Positions 34,799-64,000 of a DNA stretch of 64,000 bases are shown piece after piece. Source of the stretch: an uncultured Oscillospiraceae bacterium (GTDB taxonomy: Bacteria > Bacillota > Clostridia > UMGS1883); NCBI GenBank assembly GCA_964385605.1, contig CAYLPQ010000001.1, forward strand, positions 77,896 to 141,895. Direction: 5' to 3'. The position numbers and the translations under genes were made by a program. Position 1 is the first letter of the stretch. Each line of letters starts with the position of its first letter. The notes beneath the pieces were generated by a model. It worked only from the letters and a program-made list of their open reading frames with translations. It was not told the origin of the DNA and did no database searches.

Positions 34799-37699
34799 TT
34801 ATTTTCCATCCTTTCCCGAGATGACTTTTACGTCGACAGAAATAATCGTGGCAGGACTACCTGCAGCACCTACACGGAAATCTGTTCCTAATAAATCCAT
34901 ATTTCCCAGACATATATCGTCAAACTTAAAGGTCTGTGTTACAATCTTGCCGGTATTTTTTCTATCAATATAATTTTTTTCAGTGGTAACCTTGTTCACA
35001 TATTTATGCGAATTCTGAATCCATCTGTGGTAATAGAACGTAATGGGAAGAGTTGTATCATCTTTGTAGGTTATGGAAATCTCTGCCGCTACGTTGTCGC
35101 TATCTACTACCTCGCGCTTTACGTTTACATAAAGCTCTTTTCCTGCAGGAACTTCAGTTCCAACATATGTACCGTCTTCTGCGTAGAGAGGATTTACATC
35201 AAATGCAAAATCACCCTCGTATGCGATGGCATCACAGGATTCGGAAATGTCATATCTTCCGCCGGAGGCAGGATTACCGGTGATATCAGAAACATCTGCC
35301 CAACCGAACTGTGCTATTTTGAAAGTTTCATCCCAGCAACCAAAGATTGCATAAGTGTTTTTTGGACTCATCTGGGGATGAAGATGTCCGGGATTTGCGG
35401 AGTTTTGAGGGAGGAATGCGATTGTTTCTGTAGCACCGGTCTCGGCATCAATCACAAAAAGTCCTGAAAGCTTCGCTGATGAACCGTATTTATTATCTGC
35501 AGCAATCCATCTGCCGTCATGACTTATCATTGAGTGATTAGTACCTGTACCTGCACTTCCAAGAATTGTGGGGGCGATACCGTAGTCCGCCTTTATATAT
35601 CTCTTGTCAGTACCATCAATTCTCTGCAAAAGGAAATTTGTATCAGGACCAACAAATCCACGCATTCCGTCAACATAAGTGGAACTGCCTACCTTGCCAA
35701 TCCACTCACCGTCATAAGACCAGAACTCGTGACCGGCATTTTCGCCGACGTAACCGCTGCCGGGCTTTTCGGGGTCAGGAGATCTGAACCATTTTTGTTC
35801 AACTATGTTATAGTATTCGTCAGTATCAGTATTTACAATCCATACTCGCTCGGGATTAAGACTTCCCTCGTAAAAATACGCAAGAGTTGCATTTGATGTT
35901 TCGTGAGCAAAGAAATACAGATTACTGTACTTTGGGTTTGGATTTATGCACGGATGATTAGGTGCATAGTCAGGAAAATCAAAACCGTAGTAATGACTTA
36001 AATCCCATTCACCGGTTTTAATGTCAAATATAGGGAATCTGGTCATCAGCTTGTTGTCAAATTCACCGCTGTTATCTGCCCACCAAACACTTAACTTTGA
36101 TTCGTCATTGTTAACCTGCAAAAGTGATGGAGAACTCTTTTGCCACTCCGGAAGCTTGCCTATAAAAGTTGCTTCATATGTGTCAAGATCAAGCTTCCAT
36201 ATTTCGTATTTTCTGTTTATATACCACAAATTGTTAAGAGGGGTAACCATACAGTTGTTTTCGTTGGGAGAATCTGAAATGTATTTACACATTTCTGTCT
36301 TAATATTATATTCCCATATTTTATTGTCCGCAGTTCTGAAATAAATTCTGGTTTCATCCATAGACATACAGTTCATAGTAAAATACGGTTTTATTGCATT
36401 CTGTCCAAAGAAGTTAACTGTGTAATAGGTTCTGCCCGTATATTTATCTACATACGTTTTCTTGGGAATCTTAAAATCCGTACTCATAAGCCAATCCCAG
36501 ATATTGTCATCGTTTGCGTTGGCAAGGGTTTCCATATTGTAATCTCCAGAATTCATACCGTCTGTAAACGGACAGTAACCTGTATCGGGATTAGTCATAG
36601 AAAAACAGTTCATTGCCAGAAGCACAAACGCATCAACGTCGGCATTTTTCTCCGGTTGGAAAAGCATACTTCCCACCGTAATGAGTTTTTTGTCTTTTGC
36701 AAGCTGATAAACGTCGGTCTCTTCGGTTACATTTTCACCAATAAGCTTAAGATACCACTCTACAAGCTCTTTCTGCGTAAAATAATCTTTTGCACCGAGT
36801 GTATCGCCTTTTTCTATAATTCCAAGCTCAATTGCCATTGCCACATAGGGATCCGCCTCGGGACTCACATCGCTAAAGCCTGATTTTATATTTTTCGAAA
36901 GAGCCTCATCTTCCATTCTGTAGGTTTTTATAAGCTGTGTAAGCGCCTCTTCCCTCGTAAGCTCTTTGTCAAGGCGGGGTTCAAAAACTTCTCCCTCACC
37001 GTATCCGTCAAAAACCTCAAGAGTATGAAGTGAGTTTGCTTTTTGCCTGTTAAATGTGCCTATCTTTTCGCCAGGCTTTGCAGTACGGCTTATGTTACGC
37101 ACCTCTACCTTGGAGAATGAGTTATATGCACCTGAACGTATTCTTATATCTGCACCGTTATCAAATTTTCCTGTAAATTCCGCATCATCAATATGTATCC
37201 TTACACGGAACCAGGTTCCCTGTGTTTTAACACCGTTTTCGTCAAGACCAAGCTTGTATACTCTTTCAGATTTAGTGGTCGTTGAACCCCTCGGTTGATA
37301 TTCCACGTAGAAATATCCGCCTCCGCCATAGTCCCAATAGTCAAGTATTATTTCAAAAACACTGTCGTCTTTACCTGCAAAGTTCTCATCAAGCTTGAAA
37401 TAGAAGTAGTTCTCAACATAAACCTGTCGTGCCTCTACCCCGTTCCATTCAACCTTTTCACTGTAAAGTTCACTGTATCTGCCCTCTTCCTCGGAGCCAA
37501 GATAAGTCATCTTATCCATTTTCGGCCGACTACTGAAAATGATTGATGCATTTTCGGAATTTGGGGTATCAGGACCTGTTACGGCAGTCTGCATTGATGC
37601 GTAATCATCATCTGATGCTGCAAAAGTATTTACCGCAAAAAGGACAGACATTATTAAAATAAACGCAAAGGATATTAATCCAATTCTTTTCCTTTTCAT
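34799..37699 (-). CDS. secreted 966-aa beta-propeller-like protein (function unknown; possible lyase or binding module)
   Basis: The signal peptide is MKRKRIGLISFAFILIMSVLFAVNTFA. A long beta-strand-rich region has repeated W/Y-rich blades. One SLH-like segment appears mid-protein (FSDVSPEADPYVAMAIELGII). Confidence 0.45.
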   Translation of the reverse strand: MKRKRIGLISFAFILIMSVLFAVNTFAASDDDYASMQTAVTGPDTPNSENASIIFSSRPKMDKMTYLGSEEEGRYSELYSEKVEWNGVEARQVYVENYFYFKLDENFAGKDDSVFEIILDYWDYGGGGYFYVEYQPRGSTTTKSERVYKLGLDENGVKTQGTWFRVRIHIDDAEFTGKFDNGADIRIRSGAYNSFSKVEVRNISRTAKPGEKIGTFNRQKANSLHTLEVFDGYGEGEVFEPRLDKELTREEALTQLIKTYRMEDEALSKNIKSGFSDVSPEADPYVAMAIELGIIEKGDTLGAKDYFTQKELVEWYLKLIGENVTEETDVYQLAKDKKLITVGSMLFQPEKNADVDAFVLLAMNCFSMTNPDTGYCPFTDGMNSGDYNMETLANANDDNIWDWLMSTDFKIPKKTYVDKYTGRTYYTVNFFGQNAIKPYFTMNCMSMDETRIYFRTADNKIWEYNIKTEMCKYISDSPNENNCMVTPLNNLWYINRKYEIWKLDLDTYEATFIGKLPEWQKSSPSLLQVNNDESKLSVWWADNSGEFDNKLMTRFPIFDIKTGEWDLSHYYGFDFPDYAPNHPCINPNPKYSNLYFFAHETSNATLAYFYEGSLNPERVWIVNTDTDEYYNIVEQKWFRSPDPEKPGSGYVGENAGHEFWSYDGEWIGKVGSSTYVDGMRGFVGPDTNFLLQRIDGTDKRYIKADYGIAPTILGSAGTGTNHSMISHDGRWIAADNKYGSSAKLSGLFVIDAETGATETIAFLPQNSANPGHLHPQMSPKNTYAIFGCWDETFKIAQFGWADVSDITGNPASGGRYDISESCDAIAYEGDFAFDVNPLYAEDGTYVGTEVPAGKELYVNVKREVVDSDNVAAEISITYKDDTTLPITFYYHRWIQNSHKYVNKVTTEKNYIDRKNTGKIVTQTFKFDDICLGNMDLLGTDFRVGAAGSPATIISVDVKVISGKDGK

Positions 37700-39651: not shown

Positions 39652-39685
39652 AAAAATGCGTTACGGAACACCGTAACGCATTTTT
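39652..39685. terminator. strong bidirectional rho-independent terminator 3' of the M20 gene
   Basis: AAAAATGCGTTACGG-AACA-CCGTAACGCATTTTT is a 10-bp perfect stem with an A5 run upstream and a T5 run downstream. It lies 12 nt after the stop at 39697. Confidence 0.75.
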
Positions 39686-39696
39686 AACAGGATGGT

Positions 39697-40845
39697 TTAT
39701 ATTTTTATGGTCAGTATTGTTTTTATTGCAATTTCGAGACCTGTTTTAAGAGAAGCTTTTTCAACCCATTCTTCTCTGGTATGGGCTCCCTCTCCGTTGA
39801 AAATGCCTATACACACTGCCGGAATACCCATTGAAAGAGGAACATTGCAATCAGTAGATGCTGCTTTAACAACTATCTGTTTACCGCTTACTTCTGAAGC
39901 TACATCACAGCATATTTTTGCCAGTGAATTTTTCTTTTTCAAATCTACACCGTTTTCACAAGGCCTTTCGCCTACACATTCAACAAAAACACTTATATTT
40001 TCTTTTTGAGCAGAGGCGAAAATATCAGAAAATTTTCTTTTCATATATTCCAGACTTTCAAAATCATTACTTCTGTATTCACAAAGCATTTTTGCACTTT
40101 GCGCAATGGTATTGACAGATGTTCCGCCCTCAAAGGTTCCAACATTATAGGTGGTTTTTGTGTTTTTGTCATTTGAAAGCTCTATTTTGTAAATATCGGA
40201 GACAATATCTGAAAGTACGGTTATTGCGTTAGGATTTCCAAATTTATGGTATGAATGACCACCTTCGGTAGTTACTTCAACCATATACCTGTGTGAGCCT
40301 ACGCATTTATCGTATACGTTGCCGATTTTACTGTCAAGGGCTATAAACTGCTTTACACGATTACCAAACTGTCTCATAACAGCTTTTGTGCCACGCAAGT
40401 TGCCAAGACCTTCTTCACAGGAATTCAGTACAAATAAAATACCTTCTTTAAAAGAGATGTTGTTTTCAATAAGGAACTTTATAGTATACAGAAGAACGCA
40501 GACACTTGCAGTATCATCACCTGCACCGGGATAACATATTCTTTCTTCATCTTCCTTTAATTCCATTGGCTTTGTATCAGGAAAAACAGTATCGGTATGT
40601 GCTGAAACAACAGTAATACTGTCACTGTTTTCGCAGTTAAAAGGGAAAATCACATTATTTACTTCATCAATATACGCAGATTCCGCGCCGATATTCTTAA
40701 GCCAATTAAGGCAAAAACCAGCTCGCTTCGCTTCTTTGCCCGAAGGTGCAGGCAAAGAAGCAAATGTCCGTAGTAAATCCAAAAGTTTGTCATAATTCTC
40801 TGTTATATAATTTCTGATAAGTTCCTGCATCGCACTCTTCCTCAA
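39697..40845 (-). CDS. M20-family metallopeptidase/deacylase (ArgE/DapE/CPG2-like)
   Basis: VVSAHTDTVFPD, AGDDTASV and later Glu and His blocks are present. The protein is 382 aa and cytoplasmic. Confidence 0.65.
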   Translation of the reverse strand: MRKSAMQELIRNYITENYDKLLDLLRTFASLPAPSGKEAKRAGFCLNWLKNIGAESAYIDEVNNVIFPFNCENSDSITVVSAHTDTVFPDTKPMELKEDEERICYPGAGDDTASVCVLLYTIKFLIENNISFKEGILFVLNSCEEGLGNLRGTKAVMRQFGNRVKQFIALDSKIGNVYDKCVGSHRYMVEVTTEGGHSYHKFGNPNAITVLSDIVSDIYKIELSNDKNTKTTYNVGTFEGGTSVNTIAQSAKMLCEYRSNDFESLEYMKRKFSDIFASAQKENISVFVECVGERPCENGVDLKKKNSLAKICCDVASEVSGKQIVVKAASTDCNVPLSMGIPAVCIGIFNGEGAHTREEWVEKASLKTGLEIAIKTILTIKI

Positions 40846-40847
40846 TG

Positions 40848-41885
40848 TTATACTTTAATACGTCTTCCGCTTTGCTGACTTTCATAAACTGCTTCTACAA
40901 TTTTCTGATTAAAAATAGCTTCTGCTGCGGTTACGGGTACGTCTGATCTTTCAATTATTGCGTCAGAAAATTTTTCTATTTCTTTTGTGTACATGTTTCC
41001 ACCTGTATACTCAAGAGGTTTCATTACAACAGCACCTTCATCTGTAATGGTTTTAAGCTTTACACTTCCACTTTCAATCTGTCCTATTGTTCCATCAGCA
41101 GATATTACACCTTTAGTGCCGTAAATTTCAAATTTACATCCTCCGATTGCATCCGGAATATTGAAATTCGCCTCAACCGTGAATAAGGCTCCGTTTTCCA
41201 TACGAAGAACTGCACTGGCGGCATCCTCGGTGTCAGGATATTCAAAAATCTGATTACCGCACATACCTGTAACTTCTTTTGTTTTAAGCGATGTAAGGTA
41301 CTGAAGCAAGTCAATACAATGAATACCCATATCCATCATCGTTCCACCGCCGCTGAATGCTTTTGTCTGCCTCCATTTTACGGGAGAAACAGGCGACCAG
41401 CAATTGAATTTAGCATAAGCTGACACAATTTCACCTAATGCACCTTTTTCAACATATTCCTTAATAAGCTGATGGGCGCTGTGAAATCGCATCATAAAAC
41501 CTACTCCCAGAAGAACATTTTTACCTTTACAGTAGGATTCTATCTGACAAGCTTCTTCACTTGTAACCCCCATAGGCTTTTCAAGCAAGATATGCTTGCC
41601 CTTATCAGCTGCTTTAAAAACTTGTTCCTTATGACAAAATACAGGTGTTGCAATATAAACAGCATCGATATCCTGTTCAAGAAGTGCATCCACACTGTCA
41701 GTTGCAAAAGATGCGTTATATTTGTTTTTTACATTTTCAGCAACTTCTGCATTTATATCCATTACAGCATAACATTCTGCATTTTCAGCAAGCATCATTC
41801 CCGGTATTGTTCTTCTGTCAGCAATACCGCCGCAGCCTATTACACCCCATTTGATTTTTTTCATATAATTACTCCTTTTTATCAA
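40848..41885 (-). CDS. Gfo/Idh/MocA-family NAD(P)-dependent oxidoreductase
   Basis: The N-terminal KIKWGVIGCGGIA Rossmann motif and the ILLEKP motif are present. The gene overlaps the upstream gene by 4 bp, so translational coupling is likely. Confidence 0.8.
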   Translation of the reverse strand: MIKRSNYMKKIKWGVIGCGGIADRRTIPGMMLAENAECYAVMDINAEVAENVKNKYNASFATDSVDALLEQDIDAVYIATPVFCHKEQVFKAADKGKHILLEKPMGVTSEEACQIESYCKGKNVLLGVGFMMRFHSAHQLIKEYVEKGALGEIVSAYAKFNCWSPVSPVKWRQTKAFSGGGTMMDMGIHCIDLLQYLTSLKTKEVTGMCGNQIFEYPDTEDAASAVLRMENGALFTVEANFNIPDAIGGCKFEIYGTKGVISADGTIGQIESGSVKLKTITDEGAVVMKPLEYTGGNMYTKEIEKFSDAIIERSDVPVTAAEAIFNQKIVEAVYESQQSGRRIKV

Positions 41886-42745
41886 AAAGAAAAGACTTCT
41901 TTTTTAAATTCTTCAGTTAATGGTGAACCATATTCGGAAACCTGGAAAGCTTCTGCAAAAAGCACACTCTTTCCTTTTTCTCCGTATCGTTCAATAAGCT
42001 TATCACGGTACTTTGCAGCAGGCATTGCTTCGCGGTATTCACTGTTGTTGCTGATAGTAGGAACACTTAATTCCTCGACAGTGAGAAGTCTGCCGTCACG
42101 AGGCACACGTGGTGTACGAAGCCATTCAAGTCTTTCCTTTTTGTCTGTAGGAACTTTATCCAGGAAACCTCTTGAAGCAGGTAACCATTCATAGACCTGT
42201 GATTCGTAGCAATCAAACATTTCGTATTTTTTATCAATCACGTCATCAGTTGCTATAACTATTTCGGGATTAAAAACAGGATTTGTAAATTTATCGTAAA
42301 AATACATTATAACAGGCATTTTGGGAAGTGCTTTTACTTCCGGGCAAAATCTGGGTACAATAAGAAGATATGATGCATCCTGAACAAGGATAGCAACGTC
42401 ACGATGATCAGCATGATAGTCATTTGATCTGTGGGTAAAGATTATATCTGGCTGAAATTCACGGATATATCGAATCATTTTCTTTCTGTTTTCAATACTT
42501 GTGGAAACCTCACACTCGGGAAGTCCCATATTATCATACTCAATTCCGCTGATTTTTGAAGCCATCTGACATTCTGCAAGTCTTCTTTCGTTAAGAGCTT
42601 CAGGCTCCATTTCGTGATGACCCATAGTTCCGTTACATACGGAAAGAAAACGCACTGTGTGACCTCTTTCAATAAATTTCAGAGCTGTTCCGCCGCATCT
42701 GAAATCGTTGTCATCCATATGTGCACCAATCATTAAAATTCTCAT
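41882..42745 (-). CDS. PIG-L/LmbE-family N-acetyl-sugar deacetylase
   Basis: The N-terminal MRILMIGAHMDDNDFRCGGTAL matches the AHPDDE..GGT zinc-site pattern of the family. The RBS is AAAGGA. Confidence 0.7.
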   Translation of the reverse strand: MRILMIGAHMDDNDFRCGGTALKFIERGHTVRFLSVCNGTMGHHEMEPEALNERRLAECQMASKISGIEYDNMGLPECEVSTSIENRKKMIRYIREFQPDIIFTHRSNDYHADHRDVAILVQDASYLLIVPRFCPEVKALPKMPVIMYFYDKFTNPVFNPEIVIATDDVIDKKYEMFDCYESQVYEWLPASRGFLDKVPTDKKERLEWLRTPRVPRDGRLLTVEELSVPTISNNSEYREAMPAAKYRDKLIERYGEKGKSVLFAEAFQVSEYGSPLTEEFKKEVFSF

Positions 42746-42824
42746 AACAAACTATCCTTTCGTCTGTGATTTTTTCATATATAGGATTCATTCCATCTAA
42801 ATGATGATTAATTCAAATTTTGCA

Positions 42825-42950
42825 ATCCCTCCACCACCTACGGTGGTCCCCCTCCCTTTACACAAGGGAGGCTCACCGAGGCTTTAGAAGCCGCGCAACA
42901 AAGCCTTCCCTGTGCAAGGGAAGGTGGCACACGAGAGTGTGACGGAAGGG
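42825..42950. other. GC-rich (~62% GC) multi-hairpin element of unknown nature (candidate structured leader RNA or sRNA)
   Basis: Five consecutive local inverted repeats are present: CCACC-TACG-GGTGG, CCTCCC-TTTACACAA-GGGAGG, GGCTT-TAGA-AAGCC, CCTTCCC-TGTGCAA-GGGAAGG and CACAC-GAGA-GTGTG. On the plus strand two loops are UNCG- and GNRA-type tetraloops. The element lies between the terminator at 43015..43055 and the deacetylase operon start at 42745. Confidence 0.3.
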
Positions 42951-43014
42951 TTGTTTCTAAAAATCATCATTTATCCAAAATGTTACTCACGATAAAGCGC
43001 GCAAATTCCTATAC

Positions 43015-43055
43015 GGTAAAATATTTGCACCAAAGACCGTAGTCTTTGGTGCAAA
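43015..43055 (-). terminator. rho-independent terminator 3' of ORF 43075..44235
   Basis: A 15-bp perfect stem ATTTGCACCAAAGAC-CGTA-GTCTTTGGTGCAAAT is followed on the minus strand by ATATTTTACC. Confidence 0.7.
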
Positions 43056-43074
43056 TAATATTATTTGTTGGTTT

Positions 43075-44350: not shown

Positions 44351-45151
44351 TCATACATCCAGAACCATTCTGTCATAGCAGATAACGGGATTTTTTGTAC
44401 AGCCTTTCATATCTTCAAATGCGGCTTTTTCATCATTGAGGATTGCCCTTCCGTTATGGGAGAAAAGTAATTGTCCGACATTATGGGTATCTGCAAAATC
44501 ACAAACATCCTTAACCTTATGATGACCTGTTTCTGCTATGAGGAAATCGCACCCATTCCCCAACACATTTTCAAGGTCATCCATATCACGTACATCACCG
44601 GAGTAAAGAATTGTTTTTCCGTCAACTGTAATTTTAAAGGAATAGGATTTCGGCTTTTCCCCGGGCAAAAACTTTATATGATGGTTATGAATTGCCTCGA
44701 CTTTAATATTTTCATCTTCATACAAAAGTCCGTCGGTTATTTCATGCTCACAGATTTCAAACCAATCACGATACTGTAAACCTATACCTCGTAACACATC
44801 GTCAAAGCTATTCCATAGTCCCATATCGCCTATATGAAAATCTACCTTTTTTTCAGGTGGATATGTATTGCGGACTGTGGCAAGCTTCCATATTGTATAT
44901 ATTGTGTTAAGCAGACCGCCAAGATGGTCAATATGTGGATGAGAAATAAATATTGCCTTAATCCTCAACAAATCTATCCCCATAAGATGCGCTGTACGGG
45001 AACAGCCCTCCCCTGCGTCAAAAAGATAATAATATCCGTTACTTTCAATCATCATTGATGAGTGATGACATTCAGGCATAGGCTCCGTTCCTGCACACGT
45101 TCCAAGGAAAATAATTTTTGACATATTACTTTTTTGATTCCTCATAGTCAT
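44351..45151 (-). CDS. MBL-fold metallo-hydrolase
   Basis: The FISHPHIDHLGG motif (HxHxDH) and later H and D ligands are present. The start is ambiguous among three in-frame ATGs at 45151, 45145 and 45124. Confidence 0.65.
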   Translation of the reverse strand: MTMRNQKSNMSKIIFLGTCAGTEPMPECHHSSMMIESNGYYYLFDAGEGCSRTAHLMGIDLLRIKAIFISHPHIDHLGGLLNTIYTIWKLATVRNTYPPEKKVDFHIGDMGLWNSFDDVLRGIGLQYRDWFEICEHEITDGLLYEDENIKVEAIHNHHIKFLPGEKPKSYSFKITVDGKTILYSGDVRDMDDLENVLGNGCDFLIAETGHHKVKDVCDFADTHNVGQLLFSHNGRAILNDEKAAFEDMKGCTKNPVICYDRMVLDV

Positions 45152-47996
45152 ACATTATTTCAGGAGAAAATCTGAGTCTCATAGCAAATACTTTTGCAAC
45201 ATCGTTTTCAAATCTGTATGGAGACTCCAGCATTTTGTCAAAAGCCTTCTTCACTATATCAACATAGCTGTTTTCATTATCCACACTTCCGAACAGCAAC
45301 GCATCAAGTATTTCCATACTCGTTTCAGGCTGACTGACACGTCTTTCAACCTCTTTGAACGCGGTAGAATACCAGAATTCCTGAAGCTCCTCATCGTACA
45401 TATCAACAAGCCACTTTGCCATATTAACACAGCACTGACGGATATGTTCATCGCCGGTCATACAGTAAAGCTTTCTCATTGCAGAAGCGAGCACACCGTG
45501 CATAAACGGCTTTCCGCCATAGCAGAACTTACGTTCTGTCACTTCTTTAGGCTGTGGAACAGGCATCATTGTACTTATACAGCCCGTCTTTGCATCCTGC
45601 TTAAAAATTACGCGTTCCGCCATTATGCGGCAGGCATTAAGATAGTATTCATCAAGAGTAATATCATAAGCCGCCTGTAGAGCGAGCATACACCATCCGG
45701 GTTCTCTTTCTGTAAGGAAATCAAATTTTCTTGTATAGTATTTTGCCAAAGTATCAGCACAGTTGAGAACTATAGTTTTATACCTTTCGATACCTGTCAT
45801 CTTATAGTACAATGCAAGTCCGTCATTAAAGATATGACCCATCTGAAATTTAATTTTAGGATAGCTTTTCGGTACAAGCTCGTGAGGATAGTAATTATTT
45901 GCATGACCTACAGTGTGGACAAAGAAATAACCCTTTTCCTCAAAACTCACTCCTGTATGGCTGGTATCAACCTCCGAATAATGAGCCATACCAATACGGG
46001 CAAGGTCATAGAAACGTTCGTCACCCGTTCTCAAATAGTGAATCATCAATCCATAATGGAAATCATATTCAAGATTCATCCAGTGAATATTGTTCTCACC
46101 AAAGCTGTCTCCGTAATTAAGCATACCGTAATCACGGTAGCTTTCTCTATGATTAAGATATAACTGGAGGGAATTATCCATATAAGCATCATATTTGGGA
46201 AAATCGGGACATCCGCATTTAATACGTCCGAAAGCCATGCTTTTTTCAATTGCTTCACAGTCGGGATGGAGAAATGATATATCTGTCAGCTTTTCTGCAT
46301 CTTTTCCAAAAATAACTGTGTGATATTTTCGGAGCCCGCCGTGGAATTCATATTTTCCTGTTTTTAAATAGAAAAACATCTGTGCTTCGAGAAGTACATC
46401 CTCCTTTCTATAATGCTCCGGCTTTGTAATAAAGGGGCAAATTCCGATTTTTACTGAATCTTCTGCTGCAACAAATGATTTAGGGTAATTCTGCCAGAAT
46501 TCTTCAACAATAATTTCTGTATTATCAACAGCAAAACGTCCGTCAATCTTCTGCGCCACTTCTTTTCCGCCTACAACAGCCGTTTTTTCATCAAGCTGCA
46601 TTACATCTATTGAACAGCTATTCTGTGAAGGTCCTTCCAGATACAGCCCGTTAATTGTGTAAAATTCGTTATTCAACAAATCATTTTCAAATCCAAACTC
46701 AAGACGGTACGCATCTATATTCCTGTAAAAGTGCAGGTGGGTATAGCATTTCATACTTCTTTTTCCATCACACATAAAACGGTTAAAACGCGTTATTACA
46801 ATGTGATTTGCACCCTGCTCCTCTACAAAATACTCACCACCGCAAGCAGTATAACGCATATCATCTGCACCATAAAGAACAGCATACAGTTCCTTGTCCG
46901 GAAGTACGGAATTATTTTTGTTGTTGAAATAGTACACTTTTTCTCCGTTTGTAACAGTTATGCCATCTTCACTACAAACAGCAGAAAATTTTTCGAGACT
47001 GACCTGCTTATCACTATCCACTGCATAAAACTTTCTTCCGTCAAGAGGCAAAATTGCGTTGACAGAAACTGTTTTAATACTGTCGTCATTCCATTTGGAA
47101 GTAACTTTGCACTGCGTGAGATAGTTCTCACCGTTTTCGTCGGTAATATGAAGTCCGTCACAGGAATACATTTCTCCGATACCGAAAGGAAGTACACTCA
47201 CAGCAGGATATATACCTTCTTTTTCAGCATCGCATTTAAGTTCGATTTTTACCGGAGAATTACTTCCTTTTTCATAAACTTTTGCTTTACATCTGCCACG
47301 TCCGCAAAGGATATTACCCTCTTCATCCTGAAGCTCAATAACAAATCTCATTCCCCACAATTCCTCGGGAATTGTAAAGCGATGATTATTAAGATATTCT
47401 TCCTCTGTATAAATAGTATCTCCCAGCAATATTCTACCGCGGCAGGCAACCTTGGTCCAGAAGCGAACCTCGCCGTTATCTGTTGTTAAATTCATAATAC
47501 GGTTAAGTTGAGGCTTGGGAGCATCCTTCATAAGCACAATTGCTGTAAAAAGAACGTGTTCACCATCAAGAACCAGATATTTTATTTCATCGCCTTTTTT
47601 AAGCTCTATAGCATCTTCAGTTACAAAGAAATAATACTTTTTATCATCTCTTCCGTAGCGAAATCTTCCTATTCTTTCACCGTTCACACTAAGTTCAACA
47701 AGACATTCGCCAAAGGCACCGCACTCTTCTTCGAGCACAGGAATATACTCTTCATCATAGGTGCCGAAAGTATCTCTCACCTGAAGTGCAAGGTAATATT
47801 TTCCGTCAGCAGGAGCTTTTGCCGAAAGGCTTGCTCCTGCTGAACCAAAATCAAACACATGAGGTACAAAGTAACTTCTTCTCTGCGCATGAAAGCCCTC
47901 ATTATGTAACATATCAGAAGACAAAACAAAATCATTTTCTGAATGAACATATTTTGTTATTTCTGCATCTCCTGAAAGTAATCTGATAAAATTCAT
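45126..47996 (-). CDS. large cytoplasmic protein (956 aa) of unknown function, possibly a carbohydrate-active enzyme
   Basis: There is no signal peptide. It has beta-rich N-terminal two-thirds and a helix-rich C-terminal third. It sits between secreted-enzyme genes and the MBL hydrolase gene. I cannot name a family motif. Confidence 0.4.
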   Translation of the reverse strand: MNFIRLLSGDAEITKYVHSENDFVLSSDMLHNEGFHAQRRSYFVPHVFDFGSAGASLSAKAPADGKYYLALQVRDTFGTYDEEYIPVLEEECGAFGECLVELSVNGERIGRFRYGRDDKKYYFFVTEDAIELKKGDEIKYLVLDGEHVLFTAIVLMKDAPKPQLNRIMNLTTDNGEVRFWTKVACRGRILLGDTIYTEEEYLNNHRFTIPEELWGMRFVIELQDEEGNILCGRGRCKAKVYEKGSNSPVKIELKCDAEKEGIYPAVSVLPFGIGEMYSCDGLHITDENGENYLTQCKVTSKWNDDSIKTVSVNAILPLDGRKFYAVDSDKQVSLEKFSAVCSEDGITVTNGEKVYYFNNKNNSVLPDKELYAVLYGADDMRYTACGGEYFVEEQGANHIVITRFNRFMCDGKRSMKCYTHLHFYRNIDAYRLEFGFENDLLNNEFYTINGLYLEGPSQNSCSIDVMQLDEKTAVVGGKEVAQKIDGRFAVDNTEIIVEEFWQNYPKSFVAAEDSVKIGICPFITKPEHYRKEDVLLEAQMFFYLKTGKYEFHGGLRKYHTVIFGKDAEKLTDISFLHPDCEAIEKSMAFGRIKCGCPDFPKYDAYMDNSLQLYLNHRESYRDYGMLNYGDSFGENNIHWMNLEYDFHYGLMIHYLRTGDERFYDLARIGMAHYSEVDTSHTGVSFEEKGYFFVHTVGHANNYYPHELVPKSYPKIKFQMGHIFNDGLALYYKMTGIERYKTIVLNCADTLAKYYTRKFDFLTEREPGWCMLALQAAYDITLDEYYLNACRIMAERVIFKQDAKTGCISTMMPVPQPKEVTERKFCYGGKPFMHGVLASAMRKLYCMTGDEHIRQCCVNMAKWLVDMYDEELQEFWYSTAFKEVERRVSQPETSMEILDALLFGSVDNENSYVDIVKKAFDKMLESPYRFENDVAKVFAMRLRFSPEIMYDYEESKK

Positions 47997-60915: not shown

Positions 60916-61764
60916 TTAAAGTGTTGCTATTTTATTATTCAGAAATTCAATCGCCTTTGCAATGTCTGCCGCAGGATTCTCTCCTACTTCTCTTTCTACT
61001 GTCAAAAAGCCTTTATAGCCTATTTCCTCAAGAGCCTTAAGATAGTTGTCAAAGTCAACATTACCTTCGCCGAGAGGCATTTCAATATATGCATCTCCCT
61101 GATTTGCTTCCTCGTCAATGATGCGGTAAACAACCTCTGGATTGCAGGGACGAAGATTTTTACCATCCTTTGCGTGGGTATGTACAATATAATCCTTAAG
61201 TGTATGAACACCTTTTACGGGGTCATCGCCTGTTACCATTACAAAGTTTGCAGGGTCAAAGTTTACTGCAACACCTTTTGAACCAAGGGAATCAAGAAAT
61301 CCCTTAAGTGTTGTTGCAATTTCCGGACCTGTCTCAATAGCAAAATGCGCTTTGAGGCTGTCGGCATAACGGGCAAGTTCAAAACAAGCCTCCTGCATAA
61401 TTTTATAACGGTCATGACTTGGGTCAGCAGGAACAACACCTATATGTGTTGTAACGATGTCCGTTTCAAGCTCCGTTGCAAGGTCAAGAATTCTCTTGGA
61501 TTTTTCAATAAGACCGGGATTAAGCTCCTTGTTACCGAATCCCATGCCTAGGTCACCGCAAAGTGCGGAAAAAACAAGACCATGTGATTTTACAATATCA
61601 AGAAGCTCTCGTCGTTTTGCACCAACAAGATTTTCGGGTGCAAATTCTCCGTTTGTAGCATACATCTGAAGGCCTTTTGCTCCAAGCTCCGAAGCCTTTT
61701 TGATAGCTTCTTTATAGTCAAGTTTAAAAGAATCAAGCATTACACCAATAGGAAACTGATACAT
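60916..61764 (-). CDS. sugar phosphate isomerase/epimerase (xylose-isomerase-like TIM barrel)
   Basis: It is 282 aa and cytoplasmic. Conserved acidic and His blocks (HFAIETGPE, TTHIGVVP, VTGDDP) are typical of the AP-endonuclease-2 / sugar-isomerase TIM fold. Confidence 0.55.
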   Translation of the reverse strand: MYQFPIGVMLDSFKLDYKEAIKKASELGAKGLQMYATNGEFAPENLVGAKRRELLDIVKSHGLVFSALCGDLGMGFGNKELNPGLIEKSKRILDLATELETDIVTTHIGVVPADPSHDRYKIMQEACFELARYADSLKAHFAIETGPEIATTLKGFLDSLGSKGVAVNFDPANFVMVTGDDPVKGVHTLKDYIVHTHAKDGKNLRPCNPEVVYRIIDEEANQGDAYIEMPLGEGNVDFDNYLKALEEIGYKGFLTVEREVGENPAADIAKAIEFLNNKIATL

Positions 61765-61776
61765 AGTTTTTCTCCT

Positions 61777-62589
61777 TTATATTTCTACAGTAAGTCCGTC
61801 ATATGAGACGATATAACCGTAATCCTTTACCCTCTCCTCAAGTTCATGATGTATTGGGCGCGCATTATGTGAAAAATGATTTATAACCTTTACGGTATTA
61901 TCTGATATAACACCCATATCAGTAAGCTTTGCCACAAGTCTGTTAATATTGTCAATTCCCATATGAGGATGAATATCCTCAATAGGAATATCAATATTAG
62001 TGCAGTCCATACTTATTAAATCAAGTTTCACGTTGTTCTTTTCAAAATACTCAAACACCTCGCCAAAGAAGAATCCCGTATCGTGAGCATAAAGAATAAC
62101 CTTATCTCCTTCAATCAGATAGAAACGGGCATCATCACCTTCAGCATGATTTGCAGGAAATGAAGTAACACGGTAATTTCCAACAGTTATGGGTTTAAAT
62201 GTTTCTATTTTATTAAGCGCAACATTTTTCGGGATTTTGGTCGAAATTTTATCATAAACACCCTGGCCACAGAAAACATTAAGAGTTGGCACTCGCATTT
62301 CCTTTGCATAAGTACCGCCGCGCCTTTCAAGCTCAATCTTATAAAAATGGTCACTGTGAGAATGGGTTATTAAAAGATTTTCAATCTTGTCACCTTCGAT
62401 ATTATTCATCAGGAAATGATGGTACGTATCTGCAGGAATGTCCAAAAGCAGGTTATCATTTATAATCGCCTGACTTCTTGTGCGGATATTCTTTCCGCCA
62501 ATCTTACGGGCATCAATACAATGCCTGCAATTGCAGAACACCGCCGGAAATCCTTCCGCTGCAGCTGTGCCGAGATATGTTAATTTCAT
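61777..62589 (-). CDS. MBL-fold metallo-hydrolase
   Basis: The LLITHSHSDHF (HxHxDH) motif is present. The protein is 270 aa. Confidence 0.65.
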   Translation of the reverse strand: MKLTYLGTAAAEGFPAVFCNCRHCIDARKIGGKNIRTRSQAIINDNLLLDIPADTYHHFLMNNIEGDKIENLLITHSHSDHFYKIELERRGGTYAKEMRVPTLNVFCGQGVYDKISTKIPKNVALNKIETFKPITVGNYRVTSFPANHAEGDDARFYLIEGDKVILYAHDTGFFFGEVFEYFEKNNVKLDLISMDCTNIDIPIEDIHPHMGIDNINRLVAKLTDMGVISDNTVKVINHFSHNARPIHHELEERVKDYGYIVSYDGLTVEI

Positions 62590-62591
62590 AG

Positions 62592-63614
62592 TTAACCCTC
62601 TCTTTTAAGTTTACTTTTAATAATTCTGTCAGCCTCTGCCGCCCAGCGAAAGCTTTCCCACATATCGTCAAGCGAAGGATTAGCTTCAGTTTCTCCCTCA
62701 ATCATATCAATCAGTGTCTGAAGCTGTGCACCGGTAGGCTTGCGTTTGCAATTTACATTTATCATTTCGTAGCGCTTTTCGGGATATGTATAGTATTCGA
62801 TGAGGTCGCCCTCCTCCTGATGCTCGTGCCGGTTCATCTGTAGTATAATCCGTATTCTTCCTTTTGGTCCTATAAATTCTTTTGTATTCTCTGCAGACAT
62901 GGTATTGCTCCACCCTGCTTCATAATAAGCGACAGAACCGCCCGAAAGTCTCGCAGTTATAAGGCCGTAGTTATAACTTGTCTCGGGAACATCCTCCTCT
63001 GTTCTCAAGCCTATTCCCGATACTTCCTCCACATCTTCGCCGGTAAACCAGCGCATAACATCAATATAATGAACACCACAGTCAAGAATCGGTGATGTAT
63101 CTTTAATCAGATTAAGATATTTACTCCAGTTCATAGTGTGATGATTTTGAGTCATACGCATAACCACGGGTTTACCGATAGCACCGCTCTGGATCATTTC
63201 GGCAACCTTGCAGTAAGTGTCATTGTGCCGCAAAATATATCCTATAAGCACTTTGCACTGCGGATTGTCACGAATAAGCTTAACAGCTTCTTCTCCGCTT
63301 TCAATATTATCCGCAATAGGCTTTTCGCAAACAACGTGCTTGTTATTTCTGATACATTCACGAAGTATTTCAAGATGAGTTGACGGATATGTTGAAATAA
63401 TAACTATATCCACATCATCTCTTGCTACAATTACACGGTAATCTGTATCCGCATAGTCGGCATGATAAATACGCGCAAATCGCTGTGCGCTTTCAATATT
63501 TAAATCGCAAACACACTTGATATTTACATTTTCCATGAGCATTATATCATCAAGGTGTGCCGCACCCATAGAACCGCATCCTATGAGTGCAACGTTATAA
63601 GTTTTCTGTGCCAT
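62592..63614 (-). CDS. Gfo/Idh/MocA-family oxidoreductase
   Basis: YNVALIGCGSMGAAHL Rossmann and VVCEKPIA motifs are present. The track start 63689 lacks an RBS. The internal ATG (MAQKTYNV) at ~63612-63614 is preceded by GAAGAAGGG, so the start is uncertain between these. Confidence 0.75.
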   Translation of the reverse strand: MAQKTYNVALIGCGSMGAAHLDDIMLMENVNIKCVCDLNIESAQRFARIYHADYADTDYRVIVARDDVDIVIISTYPSTHLEILRECIRNNKHVVCEKPIADNIESGEEAVKLIRDNPQCKVLIGYILRHNDTYCKVAEMIQSGAIGKPVVMRMTQNHHTMNWSKYLNLIKDTSPILDCGVHYIDVMRWFTGEDVEEVSGIGLRTEEDVPETSYNYGLITARLSGGSVAYYEAGWSNTMSAENTKEFIGPKGRIRIILQMNRHEHQEEGDLIEYYTYPEKRYEMINVNCKRKPTGAQLQTLIDMIEGETEANPSLDDMWESFRWAAEADRIIKSKLKREG

Positions 63615-63688
63615 TTTTTGCCCTTCTTCTTTTTGCATTTGTGCTACATTATACTTTATACAAGAAACAAAGTCAAGAGAAAAAAGCA

Positions 63689-64000
63689 TTAAAGCTCAAT
63701 CCATTCGTAAGGCTTCTGAAGTGCTCTGTAGCCTGCTTCACGTATAGCAATTGCGTCAACTGTCTGGCTGTGTTCAACCGGGATTTTTCCTGTTTTAAAG
63801 AATTCAACAAGTGCCTCCATAAAAAGATTGAAATGCTCTGAAAATATAGTATAATCTGTAGGATTGTTTTCCTTATCAACAGTTCTTATTTTAAACTTAA
63901 CATCATTTGAATGATGCATCTGTGCAACTCTGCCGTCTTCAAATTCGATTAAAAGAGAGGGATGTTCAAGATCGCCAAGACCCATAACTCTTGTTGCACG
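63689..64000 (-). CDS. 3' portion of a gene running off the window end; C-terminal fragment resembling a Gfo/Idh/MocA-type oxidoreductase
   Basis: The frame is open to the window edge. The C-terminal FKTGKIPVEHSQTVDAIAIREAGYRALQKP resembles the C-terminal helix of Gfo/Idh/MocA proteins. Its stop overlaps the next start. Confidence 0.35.
   Translation of the reverse strand, partial: RATRVMGLGDLEHPSLLIEFEDGRVAQMHHSNDVKFKIRTVDKENNPTDYTIFSEHFNLFMEALVEFFKTGKIPVEHSQTVDAIAIREAGYRALQKPYEWIEL

What the first reader, a model, noticed from the sequence alone, without database searches (positions are those of the whole stretch)
39697..42745. Tightly coupled PIG-L deacetylase, Gfo/Idh/MocA dehydrogenase and M20 deacylase operon inside a lyase/GH locus
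The three genes overlap or abut (41882/41885 overlap, 40845/40848). They are bracketed by strong terminators. A de-N-acetylase plus an NAD(P) sugar dehydrogenase plus an amidohydrolase looks like a cytoplasmic amino-sugar or N-acyl-sugar processing route, for example for an N-acetylated uronic or amino sugar released by the lyases. It does not match a canonical named pathway that I know. The end of the window (60916..64000) has a second small-enzyme cluster with an isomerase, an MBL and two Gfo/Idh/MocA genes.
Basis: inference. Interest (0 to 1): 0.55.

Follow-up and report, generated by a model that had tools for sequence, protein, structure and literature searches.

The report
Amino-sugar deacetylase, dehydrogenase, amidase operon
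A three-gene operon for cytoplasmic enzymes sits inside a gut Clostridia locus for breaking down an acidic polysaccharide; it most likely processes N-acetylated sugars released by that locus, but only the deacetylase and dehydrogenase recur together in other genomes, and no substrate is known.

Summary
Three minus-strand genes encode a PIG-L/LmbE (CE14) deacetylase (42745..41882), a Gfo/Idh/MocA oxidoreductase (41864..40848) and an M20 metallo-amidase (40830..39697). All have intact catalytic motifs and no signal peptide. Strong hairpins (dG -25.4 and -28.4 kcal/mol) flank the unit.

The reported overlaps come from longest-ORF TTG starts. The likely ATG starts, each with a Shine-Dalgarno site, leave 17-nt gaps.

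- **The trio is rare.** It recurs in one related MAG (L095), and probably in a short fragment.
- **PIG-L and this Gfo clade recur together.** They are adjacent in both gene orders, once right after a GH88 gene. Of 51 loci with more distant clade members, 17 carry a PIG-L and 34 a DegT sugar aminotransferase.
- **The PIG-L clade is large.** It was found in more than 590 species, in varied glycan loci, with NagB-like genes nearby in 8 of 77.
- **The M20 link is narrow.** It is confined to one lineage, and its relatives sit in non-glycan contexts.

No protein reaches a named NCBIfam equivalog, and BshB is rejected. The operon is an uncharacterised amino-sugar accessory module of moderate interest.

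The parts
41882..42745 (-). PIG-L/LmbE-like (CAZy CE14-type) Zn-dependent de-N-acetylase, 287 aa, no signal peptide. It belongs to a long clade with a conserved C-terminal extension of about 100 residues.
   Evidence: Pfam PF02585 at 83 bits against a 28.2-bit cut-off. Residues H9, D11, D12, R55, H111, D113 and H114 are invariant in 25 homologues, matching the HXD1D2+H motif. The AF2 model has pLDDT 93.1, and the top Foldseek hits are BC1534/BshB, Pyrococcus diacetylchitobiose deacetylase and GalB, at about 20% identity.
40848..41864 (-). Gfo/Idh/MocA NAD(P)-dependent sugar oxidoreductase, 338 aa. The longest ORF extends to a TTG at 41885.
   Evidence: Pfam PF01408, PF22725 and PF02894. The GxGxxA, EKP and D-x3-H motifs are read directly from the sequence. 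Best PDB matches are 1,5-anhydro-D-fructose reductase 2glx (E 8.8e-31) and DgpA1 (E 3.6e-29). No NCBIfam equivalog is reached. The 338-aa gene call appears.
39697..40830 (-). M20 family dinuclear metallo-amidohydrolase with a dimerisation domain, 377 aa. The longest ORF extends to a TTG at 40845.
   Evidence: Pfam PF01546 and PF07687. H78, D80, D105, D106, E139, E140, D166 and H350 are invariant in 20 homologues. The closest solved structure is poly(aspartic acid) hydrolase 7LJH (E 7.5e-48). DapE and ArgE cut-offs are not reached.
43022..43057 (-). Terminator hairpin of the upstream Big_4 surface-protein gene. It separates that gene from the trio.
   Evidence: 16-bp stem; dG -25.4 kcal/mol, z -8.5.
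42746..43021 (-). Leader and promoter region of the trio. It holds a GC-rich structured stretch of about 120 nt (42935-42816), including a 51-nt two-hairpin element (42873-42823). No strong sigma-70 consensus was found.
   Evidence: Sequence. Fold dG -57.6 kcal/mol, z -3.9. No Rfam match. The element is 100% identical to L049:10874-10924. Promoter scan.
39652..39685 (-). Intrinsic terminator directly after the M20 stop codon. A second hairpin with a T-run lies at 39592-39577.
   Evidence: Sequence; dG -28.4 kcal/mol, z -8.3; scan.
44351..45151 (-). MBL-fold hydrolase in the upstream operon. In the related locus L002 it is the gene immediately before PIG-L and M20.
   Evidence: Pfam Lactamase_B and Lactamase_B_2. 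MBL-PIG-L-M20 contiguity in L002-L004.

Best explanation
The three genes form one transcription unit for cytoplasmic enzymes. The unit serves as an accessory amino-sugar module of a Clostridial locus, from a ruminant-gut Oscillospiraceae-like organism, that degrades a uronic-acid polysaccharide with lyases and GH88.

Shown:
- The unit has intact catalytic motifs and is flanked by terminators.
- PIG-L and this Gfo clade co-localise repeatedly.

Inferred:
- Oligosaccharides cut by surface lyases are imported, and GH88 removes the unsaturated uronate.
- The CE14-type PIG-L enzyme then hydrolyses the N-acetyl group of the exposed or released HexNAc, or of a HexNAc-terminated oligosaccharide, by Zn-activated water attack with Asp11 as general base.
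- The NAD-dependent Gfo enzyme interconverts a hydroxyl and a keto group on that sugar or its partner. Relatives work beside sugar aminotransferases, and the closest solved enzyme reduces a 2-keto sugar.
- The M20 enzyme hydrolyses a second amide of the N-acyl-amino-acid type. This step was added only in this lineage.

The exact substrates are unknown.
For: Operon anatomy: 17-nt gaps with Shine-Dalgarno sites, no signal peptides, flanking hairpins.

Active sites: PIG-L HXDD+H, with R55, H111 and D113 invariant, and a confident LmbE fold. M20 metal ligands are invariant. The Gfo EKP and D-x3-H motifs are present.

Locus conservation: the same trio follows the same DUF7402, PcRGLX-like, MBL and Big_4 genes in L095 (Gfo 87% identical).

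PIG-L and Gfo adjacency survives rearrangement:
- PIG-L then Gfo in the window, L095 and L100.
- Gfo then PIG-L in L011 (64% and 65% identity).
- GH88, Gfo, PIG-L in L096/L097.

Wider Gfo clade: among 51 metagenome loci with Gfo relatives at about 41-58% identity and at least 3 neighbouring ORFs, 34 carry a DegT aminotransferase, 17 a PIG-L, 18 a NagB-like protein and 9 a ceramidase-like amidase within 4 genes.

PIG-L clade: its neighbours are glycan-catabolic. Counts are AraC in 18 of 77 loci, Gfo in 13 of 77, NagB-like in 8 of 77, and TIM barrels, MFS transporters, GH123, GH3 and GH2 in smaller numbers.

M20 next to PIG-L: seen with three different M20 subfamilies, in L002, L018 and L037.
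Against: - No enzyme assay or expression data exist, and no protein reaches a curated equivalog.
- The exact trio is limited to one close lineage.
- L002 lacks the Gfo. Close Gfo homologues in L098 and L183 have no PIG-L nearby.
- M20 relatives, including the sister sequence P0163, sit in housekeeping or amino-acid contexts.
- The window has no DegT, NagB-like, NagA or kinase gene to complete a route.
- PIG-L neighbourhoods are very heterogeneous, and no single partner exceeds about 25% of loci.
- HexNAc has not been shown to be a component of the target polysaccharide.
Confidence: 0.45

Rival explanations
1. The operon arose by accretion. The three genes are co-transcribed but act on unrelated substrates. 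In particular, the M20 is a general peptidase or deacylase, for example for beta-aspartyl or acidic dipeptide-like compounds, that happens to sit after the PIG-L in this lineage. The Gfo is a separately inserted sugar reductase.
For: - M20 homologues at 54-59% identity lie next to a glycerate kinase and SNF transporter (L090), next to LysR, PGA_cap and Lyase_1 genes (L091), or among housekeeping genes (L093, L180).
- The best solved relative is a poly(aspartic acid) hydrolase.
- The Gfo is absent between PIG-L and M20 in L002.
- Close Gfo homologues occur without PIG-L.
- The immediate neighbours of the PIG-L clade are heterogeneous.
Against: - PIG-L and Gfo stay adjacent in both gene orders and across two PIG-L subfamilies.
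- M20 lies next to PIG-L with three different M20 subfamilies.
- The PIG-L-linked M20s group together in a neighbour-joining tree (no support values were computed).
Confidence: 0.25
2. An oxidised route. The Gfo enzyme oxidises C1 of HexNAc or HexN to the lactone and then the aldonic acid. The resulting N-acetyl-hexosaminate is an N-acyl alpha-amino acid, and the aminoacylase-like M20 deacetylates it. PIG-L handles the ring-form or glycosidic HexNAc. The nearby MBL enzymes act as lactonases.
For: - M20 enzymes typically cleave N-acyl amino acids with a free carboxylate (established knowledge of ArgE, DapE and aminoacylases).
- The family includes aldose 1-dehydrogenases: the Gfo hits Gfo6 xylose 1-dehydrogenase at 122 bits and the aldose-aldose oxidoreductase 5a02.
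- An MBL gene sits beside a Gfo or PIG-L gene twice: MBL-PIG-L-M20 in L002, and MBL270-GFO365 in the window.
Against: This is pure inference. No dehydratase, ammonia-lyase or aldolase for hexosaminate is present in the window. Net oxidation is unfavourable for a strict anaerobe. The MBL families matched are RNase Z-like and PhnP-like, not known lactonases.
Confidence: 0.1
3. An oxidise-and-eliminate route for glycoside cleavage. The Gfo is a glycoside 3-dehydrogenase with tightly bound NAD, as in DgpA, BT2158/2159 and NanOx. The PIG-L-fold protein acts as a Zn hydratase like GalB, or unmasks the substrate. Together with the TIM-barrel enzymes elsewhere in the locus they cleave resistant linkages.
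For: - PDB matches to DgpA1 and DgpA (E 3.6e-29 and 7.9e-25), YjhC and NanOx (E 1.7e-25 and 8.7e-21), and a glucuronide 3-dehydrogenase (E 5.7e-20).
- The GalB hydratase is among the top structural matches of the PIG-L model.
- PIG-L clade members sit beside Gfo and AP_endonuc_2 TIM barrels in L008, L010, L023, L024 and L026.
- The window has a TIM-MBL-Gfo cluster and a GH4.
Against: - NCBIfam scores for the BT_2158 and BT_2159 families are far below cut-off (38 and 51 bits against 750 and 650).
- There is no TIM-barrel gene in the trio.
- The full deacetylase motif, including the substrate-binding Arg, is conserved.
- NagB-like neighbours point to amine chemistry.
Confidence: 0.12
4. A biosynthetic role: a BshB-type deacetylase in low-molecular-weight thiol synthesis, or an enzyme of glycoconjugate or antibiotic synthesis.
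For: The best NCBIfam hit of the PIG-L is BshB1 (E 7.7e-29). In L096 the Gfo-PIG-L pair abuts an EPS biosynthesis cluster containing DegT, Bac_transf, a PglD-like gene and GT4 genes.
Against: - The BshB1 score is 101 bits against a 182.5-bit cut-off.
- No BshA or BshC, no glycosyltransferase and no biosynthetic gene was found among the window's ORFs of at least 150 aa.
- The clade is embedded in catabolic loci with transporters, GHs and AraC regulators.
- Identity to characterised LmbE enzymes is only about 20%.
Confidence: 0.03

Closest known systems
Diacetylchitobiose deacetylase (Dac, CE14) of the Thermococcus/Pyrococcus chitin pathway
   Same: A cytoplasmic LmbE-fold Zn deacetylase used in catabolism of an N-acetylhexosamine oligosaccharide rather than in biosynthesis. 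It is among the top structural matches (8bgo, 3wl3, 4xm0).
   Different: Identity is only about 20%. The window protein has a distinct, conserved C-terminal extension (SQVYEWLP and FAEAF..SEYG motifs). No GlmA-type glucosaminidase is in the operon. The partners are a Gfo/Idh/MocA and an M20, and the locus is a uronate-polysaccharide (GH88 and lyase) locus, not a chitin locus.
BshB / BC1534 (GlcNAc-malate deacetylase, bacillithiol biosynthesis)
   Same: The closest match by sequence and structure (2ixd E 8.1e-16; Foldseek rank 1). It has the same HXDD+H, His, Asp and Arg residues.
   Different: The score is below the equivalog cut-off. No BshA or BshC is present. The context is catabolic, and there are about 100 extra C-terminal residues.
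Canonical NagA/NagB amino-sugar catabolism
   Same: The same logic of deacetylating an N-acetyl amino sugar and then removing the nitrogen. PIG-L clade members are often followed by a distant NagB-like protein (8 of 77 loci).
   Different: NagA belongs to the amidohydrolase superfamily and acts on the 6-phosphate. Here the deacetylase has an LmbE fold, no kinase or PTS is linked, and the window has no NagB-like gene.
1,5-anhydro-D-fructose reductase (AFR) and glycoside 3-dehydrogenases (DgpA, LgdA, BT2158/2159) of the Gfo/Idh/MocA family
   Same: The same two-domain fold and the EKP and D-x3-H catalytic motifs. These are the best PDB sequence matches.
   Different: No solved relative scores above about 110 bits (E 8.8e-31). 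The NCBIfam equivalog cut-offs are missed by a wide margin. No TIM-barrel lyase partner is in the operon. The clade is linked to PIG-L and DegT genes instead.
PahZ2 poly(aspartic acid) hydrolase and DapE/ArgE-type M20 deacylases
   Same: A dinuclear-metal M20 catalytic domain plus a dimerisation domain, with all ligands conserved. The chemistry is hydrolysis of an N-acyl amino acid or peptide amide.
   Different: Identity to PahZ2 is well under 50% by my reading of the alignment (the tool gave no figure). DapE and ArgE cut-offs are not reached. The gene sits in a polysaccharide locus after a sugar deacetylase.
Streptococcal/clostridial glycosaminoglycan utilisation clusters (GH88 UGL with DhuI/DhuD or KduI/KduD, KdgK and KdgA)
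   Same: Cytoplasmic processing of products of lyases and GH88. One relative has GH88, Gfo and PIG-L in a row.
   Different: No KduI/DhuI, SDR reductase, KDG kinase or aldolase is in the window. A CE14 deacetylase and a Gfo/Idh/MocA are not part of the described clusters (my own knowledge; not tested here).

Membership tests
LmbE-like / PIG-L superfamily (CAZy CE14) | PIG-L domain (Pfam PF02585) above the gathering score | tested here: met
   83 bits against a 28.2-bit cut-off, residues 4-124.
LmbE-like / PIG-L superfamily (CAZy CE14) | HXD1D2 + H metal-binding and catalytic motif, with a 97-148 residue spacer | tested here: met
   H9-M-D11-D12 and H114, with a spacer of 101 residues. All are invariant in 25 homologues, as are R55, H111 and D113, the equivalents of BshB R53, H110 and D112.
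LmbE-like / PIG-L superfamily (CAZy CE14) | Rossmann-like LmbE fold | tested here: met
   AF2 pLDDT 93.1. The top 42 Foldseek PDB hits are all LmbE-fold proteins, with E down to 2e-15.
LmbE-like / PIG-L superfamily (CAZy CE14) | Hydrolysis of an N-acetylglucosamine-containing substrate | not testable with these tools
   This needs an enzyme assay. Only context supports it: NagB-like, GH123, GH3 and GH88 neighbours.
BshB1 (bacillithiol biosynthesis deacetylase, TIGR04001) | Score above the curated equivalog cut-off | tested here: not met
   101 bits against 182.5.
BshB1 (bacillithiol biosynthesis deacetylase, TIGR04001) | Presence of BshA and BshC pathway partners | tested here: not met
   No GT4 or BshC-like gene was found among the window's ORFs of at least 150 aa. 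The rest of the genome was not examined.
Gfo/Idh/MocA oxidoreductases | N-terminal Rossmann domain and C-terminal alpha/beta domain above the Pfam cut-offs | tested here: met
   PF01408 85.3 bits, PF22725 107.5 bits, PF02894 100 bits.
Gfo/Idh/MocA oxidoreductases | GxGxxG/A dinucleotide motif, EKP lysine and D-x3-H catalytic pair | tested here: met
   Read from the translation: GCGGIA, LLEKPMG and DMGIH. The assignment of these roles rests on established knowledge of GFOR and AFR.
Named Gfo/Idh/MocA equivalogs (IolG, levoglucosan dehydrogenase, BT_2158/BT_2159 glycoside 3-dehydrogenases, UDP-GlcNAc 3-dehydrogenase, Gfo6) | Score above the curated cut-off | tested here: not met
   153 against 355, 112 against 650, 38 against 750, 51 against 650, 130 against 450 and 122 against 350 bits.
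Peptidase M20 (ArgE/DapE/aminoacylase-type metallohydrolases) | M20 catalytic domain plus dimerisation domain above the Pfam cut-offs | tested here: met
   PF01546 61.5 bits, PF07687 44.9 bits.
Peptidase M20 (ArgE/DapE/aminoacylase-type metallohydrolases) | Dinuclear metal ligands (His, bridging Asp, Glu, Asp/Glu, His) and the catalytic Glu | tested here: met
   H78, D80, D105, D106, E139, E140, D166 and H350 are invariant in 20 homologues and align with PahZ2.
DapE / ArgE / PepT equivalogs | Score above the curated cut-off | tested here: not met
   Gram-positive DapE 81 against 304; DapE-ArgE 72 against 218; acetylornithine deacetylase 49 against 298; PepT-like 44 against 274.
Conserved three-gene module (PIG-L + Gfo + M20) as a pathway unit | The same three genes recur together in phylogenetically separate genomes | tested here: not met
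   The trio was found only in the window's own contig (L001) and in L095, a close relative. PIG-L with M20 alone occurs in L002. PIG-L with Gfo alone occurs in L011, L096 and L100. Of 77 PIG-L loci, 3 have an adjacent M20 and 13 have a Gfo within 4 genes.
PIG-L + Gfo clade pair as a functional unit | Adjacency kept through rearrangement and divergence | tested here: met
   Both gene orders occur in close relatives. A PIG-L lies within 4 genes in 17 of 51 loci of more distant Gfo relatives.

The most novel reading that the evidence does not exclude
The long CE14 clade and this Gfo/Idh/MocA clade together form an undescribed, non-phosphorylative route for removing nitrogen from N-acetyl amino sugars. 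The steps are deacetylation, then keto/amino or keto/hydroxyl interconversion. Gut Clostridia and several other phyla would use it downstream of GH88 and lyases. In this lineage the M20 enzyme removes a second amide, such as an N-acyl amino-acid-type decoration or an N-acetyl-hexosaminate. The related DegT, PIG-L, NagB-like, NagA-like, Gfo and DHDPS clusters would be a catabolic pathway for di-N-acetylated deoxy sugars or nonulosonic acids.
Probability: 0.2. Interest if true: 0.65.

Novelty: new variant of a known kind. Interest (0 to 1): 0.4.

Why it matters
CE14 (LmbE) enzymes are known from thiol biosynthesis, GPI anchor synthesis, antibiotic tailoring and archaeal chitin use. About a third of the family has no predicted function (PMC13450560).

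This work finds a large clade that is distant from all characterised CE14 enzymes. It was detected in more than 590 species, from ruminant-gut Clostridia to haloarchaea, Poribacteria and Latescibacterota, and it sits in glycan-catabolic loci. It pairs repeatedly with one Gfo/Idh/MocA clade.

If the pair defines a new way of handling N-acetyl amino sugars released from acidic polysaccharides, it would fill a gap in models of gut and rumen glycan breakdown and give targets for enzyme discovery. The window operon itself is one lineage-specific arrangement of such enzymes, so its individual importance is modest.

Tried and rejected
- **BshB or bacillithiol role.** Rejected on the equivalog score and the missing partners.
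- **Riboswitch or known RNA in the 330-nt leader.** Rfam found nothing at E up to 1.
- **Broadly conserved trio.** Scans of 80 GTDB species loci anchored on PIG-L and 80 metagenome loci anchored on Gfo found the trio only in the closest lineage.
- **Single dominant PIG-L partner.** A Pfam scan of 132 immediate neighbours returned 135 families; the most frequent, AraC, was in 13.
- **DegT, NagB-like, NagA-like or ceramidase-like genes in the window.** tblastn found none.
- **Clues to the polysaccharide from the large unannotated proteins** (693, 705 and 956 aa). No PDB sequence match.
- **Literature on a PIG-L, Gfo and M20 or DegT pathway.** Full-text searches found nothing relevant. A haloarchaeal glycosaminoglycan paper mentions only CE4 and ChbG deacetylases.
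- **Second Gfo gene at the window end.** The partial ORF at 63690-64000 has no Pfam hit.

Full report
**Observation**

The window at 39697-42745 holds three consecutive minus-strand ORFs. Pfam assigns them well above the gathering thresholds:
- 41882-42745: PIG-L (PF02585, 83 bits).
- 40848-41885: Gfo/Idh/MocA, N- and C-terminal domains (85-107 bits).
- 39697-40845: Peptidase_M20 plus M20_dimer (61 and 45 bits).

The reported overlap and abutment come from taking the longest ORFs, which start at TTG. The sequence shows ATG 41864 seven bases after AAGGAG, and ATG 40830 after GAGGAAGAG. Independent gene calls on an identical public contig use these starts and give 338 and 377 aa. Homologues have the same lengths. 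The genes are therefore separated by 17 nt each. They are packed tightly enough to be one transcript, but they do not overlap.

The unit is bracketed by strong hairpins:
- 43057-43022, after the upstream Big_4 gene: dG -25.4 kcal/mol, z -8.5.
- 39685-39652, directly after the M20 stop codon: dG -28.4 kcal/mol, z -8.3.
- 39592-39577: a second hairpin with a T-run.

None of the three proteins has an N-terminal signal sequence, unlike the neighbouring fn3 protein. They are cytoplasmic.

**Setting**

The 64-kb window reads almost entirely on one strand, with G+C of 32-42% per 2-kb bin. It encodes:
- two long GH88 proteins;
- a 1064-aa protein with Hepar_II_III_C;
- a 956-aa protein with a weak PcRGLX-like hit;
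- a 1231-aa DUF7402/FG-GAP/dockerin protein;
- GH4 and GH43;
- several SLH-anchored giants with no Pfam domain;
- an ABC importer and four AraC regulators;
- GDPD, PHP and alpha/beta-hydrolase proteins, a second M20 (TIGR01891, above its cut-off) and an Amidohydro_2.

The closest relatives of its genes come from ruminant-gut Oscillospiraceae and other Clostridia MAGs. The description 'inside a lyase/GH locus' is correct. No sulfatase, NagA, NagB, KduI, KduD or KDG-pathway gene was found in the window.

**The three proteins**

*PIG-L.* It has the complete LmbE signature HXD1D2+H (H9-M-D11-D12 and H114, spacer 101 residues). It also has the equivalents of BshB Arg53, His110 and Asp112 (R55, H111, D113). 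All are invariant in 25 homologues (motif definition from PMC4101496). An AlphaFold model is confident (pLDDT 93.1). Its best structural matches are BC1534/BshB, Pyrococcus diacetylchitobiose deacetylase, GalB hydratase and TT1542, all at about 20% identity with TM about 0.63. A conserved C-terminal extension of about 100 residues distinguishes the clade. The best NCBIfam hit, BshB1, scores 101 bits against a cut-off of 182.5.

*Gfo.* It has the GxGxxA, EKP and D-x3-H motifs. Its best solved relatives are 1,5-anhydro-D-fructose reductase, DgpA C-glycoside 3-dehydrogenases, levoglucosan dehydrogenase and YjhC/NanOx. It reaches no equivalog cut-off.

*M20.* All dinuclear-site residues are invariant (H78, D80, D105/D106, E139/E140, D166, H350). 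It is closest to poly(aspartic acid) hydrolase PahZ2 (E 7.5e-48), and again it reaches no equivalog.

**Is the trio a conserved module?**

No. The identical arrangement, with the same upstream DUF7402, 959-aa, MBL and Big_4 genes, was found in one related MAG (L095, Gfo 87% identical). It is probably also present on a 2.1-kb fragment (L100).

In the next relative (PIG-L 72% identical, L002-L004) the order is MBL, PIG-L, M20, with no Gfo.

M20 homologues at 54-59% identity lie elsewhere:
- beside a glycerate kinase and an SNF transporter (L090, in the same MAG as L095);
- beside LysR, PGA_cap and Lyase_1 genes (L091);
- among housekeeping genes (L093, L180).

In a neighbour-joining tree the PIG-L-linked M20s group together, but their sister P0163 lies in a housekeeping context. 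The M20 link is therefore lineage-specific. Two other M20 subfamilies also sit next to PIG-L clade members (L018, L037). That is a weak hint that an extra amidase is useful beside this deacetylase.

**PIG-L and Gfo**

This pair is better supported. Among close Gfo homologues (at least 64% identity), PIG-L is adjacent in five of seven distinct contexts, in both gene orders:
- PIG-L then Gfo in the window, L095 and L100.
- Gfo then PIG-L in L011.
- GH88, Gfo, PIG-L in L096/L097.

It is absent in L098/L099 and L183, where the neighbours include GH78-type rhamnosidases.

Among 51 metagenome loci that encode more distant members of the Gfo clade (about 41-58% identity) and have at least three neighbouring ORFs, the following lie within four genes:
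- a DegT/DnrJ/EryC1 aminotransferase in 34;
- a PIG-L, in a short 234-aa form, in 17;
- a 316-aa protein in 18;
- a ceramidase-like amidase in 9.

NCBIfam shows the 316-aa protein to be a distant NagB relative, the DegT to be closest to PseC and LegC, and an accompanying Amidohydro_1 to be NagA-like. DHDPS-family, SDR, aldo-keto reductase and glutamate dehydrogenase genes also occur. PIG-L genes are few per genome (my estimate, not measured here), so a 33% co-occurrence is far above chance. This places the Gfo clade in amine and keto sugar chemistry next to deacetylases.

**The PIG-L clade at large**

A pattern scan of one genome per GTDB species found at least 591 stretches encoding relatives. 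They come from gut Clostridia, haloarchaeal plasmids, Acidobacteriota, Poribacteria, Latescibacterota, Gemmatimonadota, Lentisphaerota and others.

In 77 loci the neighbours are heterogeneous but catabolic:
- AraC regulators in 18 loci;
- Gfo/Idh/MocA in 13;
- a 312-aa NagB-like protein in 8, usually the next gene downstream;
- AP_endonuc_2 TIM barrels in 5 to 9, depending on the method (phmmer, BLAST clustering);
- MFS transporters, counted as 10 of the 132 immediately adjacent ORFs;
- GH123 in 3, GH3 in 4, plus GH2 and GDSL esterases.

One 57%-identical member sits in a cluster of PL8, SLH, Gfo, three TIM barrels, PIG-L, GH123, AraC and GH88. This supports a role in handling N-acetyl amino sugars from glycans. 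It argues against a thiol-biosynthesis role.

**Mechanism proposed**

*Shown.* The operon encodes three cytoplasmic metallo- or NAD-dependent enzymes with intact active sites, inside a lyase/GH88 locus. The PIG-L and Gfo association recurs.

*Inferred.*
- Imported lyase products are trimmed by GH88.
- The PIG-L enzyme removes the N-acetyl group from the exposed or released HexNAc.
- The Gfo enzyme carries out a keto/hydroxyl interconversion on that sugar or its partner.
- The M20 hydrolyses a second amide.

The window lacks the aminotransferase or NagB-like step seen elsewhere. The route is therefore either completed elsewhere in the genome or differs from those clusters.

Rivals:
- accretion of functionally unrelated genes (0.25);
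- an oxidise-and-eliminate role for the Gfo, with PIG-L as hydratase or unmasking enzyme (0.12);
- a C1-oxidation route with an aminoacylase-type M20 step (0.10);
- a biosynthetic or BshB-type role (0.03).

**Comparison with known systems, and novelty**

Each protein is a member of a known superfamily, and the membership tests were met. None is a member of a named functional family. All equivalog tests were run and none was met.

The nearest functional analogue for the deacetylase is the archaeal Dac step of chitin catabolism. For the overall logic it is NagA/NagB. Full-text searches found no described pathway with this gene set. A 2026 analysis lists about a third of CE14 as clades of unknown target.

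I rate the operon a new variant of a known kind: accessory sugar-processing genes inside a polysaccharide locus. Interest is about 0.4. Most of that interest lies in the widespread uncharacterised CE14 clade and its Gfo partner rather than in the particular trio.

Noticed in passing
window 42873-42823 (minus strand), within the structured leader 42935-42816; L049:10874-10924 and L049:11830-11876: A 51-nt element with two hairpins (GCCTCCCTTGTGTAAAGGGAGGGGGACCACCGTAGGTGGTGGAGGGATTGC) lies upstream of the PIG-L gene. It is 100% identical to a sequence just after the PIG-L homologue of a distant Eubacteriales MAG, where the PIG-L is only 49% identical at the protein level. That MAG has a second copy at 89% identity in the next intergenic gap, and its 3' GGAGGG sits 7 nt before the next gene's ATG, where a Shine-Dalgarno site would be. 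Rfam has no match. It may be a small mobile or REP-like element, or a cis-regulatory element.
   Followed up: partly
L113, L115-L119, L122, L125, L131, L134, L137-L139, L154, L167, L171, L176 (for example L117:1919-10592): Metagenome loci recur with a cluster of DegT (PseC/LegC-like) aminotransferase, short PIG-L, NagB-like 316-aa protein, NagA-like Amidohydro_1, Gfo/Idh/MocA, DHDPS-family lyase, aldo-keto reductase and SDR. Some also carry glutamate dehydrogenase or a ceramidase-like amidase. This looks like an undescribed catabolic pathway for di-N-acetylated amino sugars or nonulosonic acids.
   Followed up: partly
window 60916-64000: A second small-enzyme cluster holds an AP_endonuc_2 TIM barrel (60916-61764), an MBL (61777-62589) and a Gfo/Idh/MocA (62592-63689). 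TIM plus Gfo next to a PIG-L clade member recurs in L008, L010, L023, L024 and L026, with GH123 also present in L008, L023 and L024. The two window clusters may therefore be functionally related.
   Followed up: partly
window 12245-14326 (693 aa, minus strand); L034, L044, L046: A 693-aa protein has no Pfam, NCBIfam or PDB sequence match. Homologues at 42-61% identity lie within four genes of PIG-L clade members in three other genomes. In L044 they also sit with Amidohydro_2 and GH2. It is a candidate for a new glycan-active family.
   Followed up: partly
window 17024-18367, 28987-30096; L037:8543-9922: The locus carries two more amidohydrolase-type enzymes. One is a second M20 of the aminoacylase/hippuricase subfamily (TIGR01891, 174.7 bits against a 153.75-bit cut-off). 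The other is an Amidohydro_2. A 67%-identical orthologue of the second M20 sits directly upstream of a PIG-L clade gene in L037. The target glycan may carry several amide-linked groups.
   Followed up: no
window 34799-37699, 45126-47996, 21012-23129, 51715-54390: Several very large proteins, some secreted or SLH-anchored, have no convincing domain. The 966-aa protein has none. The 956-aa protein has only a sub-threshold PcRGLX-like hit. The 705-aa protein has none. The two that were searched (956 and 705 aa) have no PDB sequence match. They are conserved and syntenic in L002 and L095, and may be novel lyases or hydrolases that define the locus's substrate.
   Followed up: no
L025:10880-11818, L027, L031, L056 and others: A family of about 312 aa with no Pfam hit is weakly NagB-like in NCBIfam (52.8 bits). 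It is the gene immediately downstream of long PIG-L genes in several Clostridia, often with a divergent AraC regulator upstream. This forms a compact AraC, PIG-L, NagB-like unit.
   Followed up: partly
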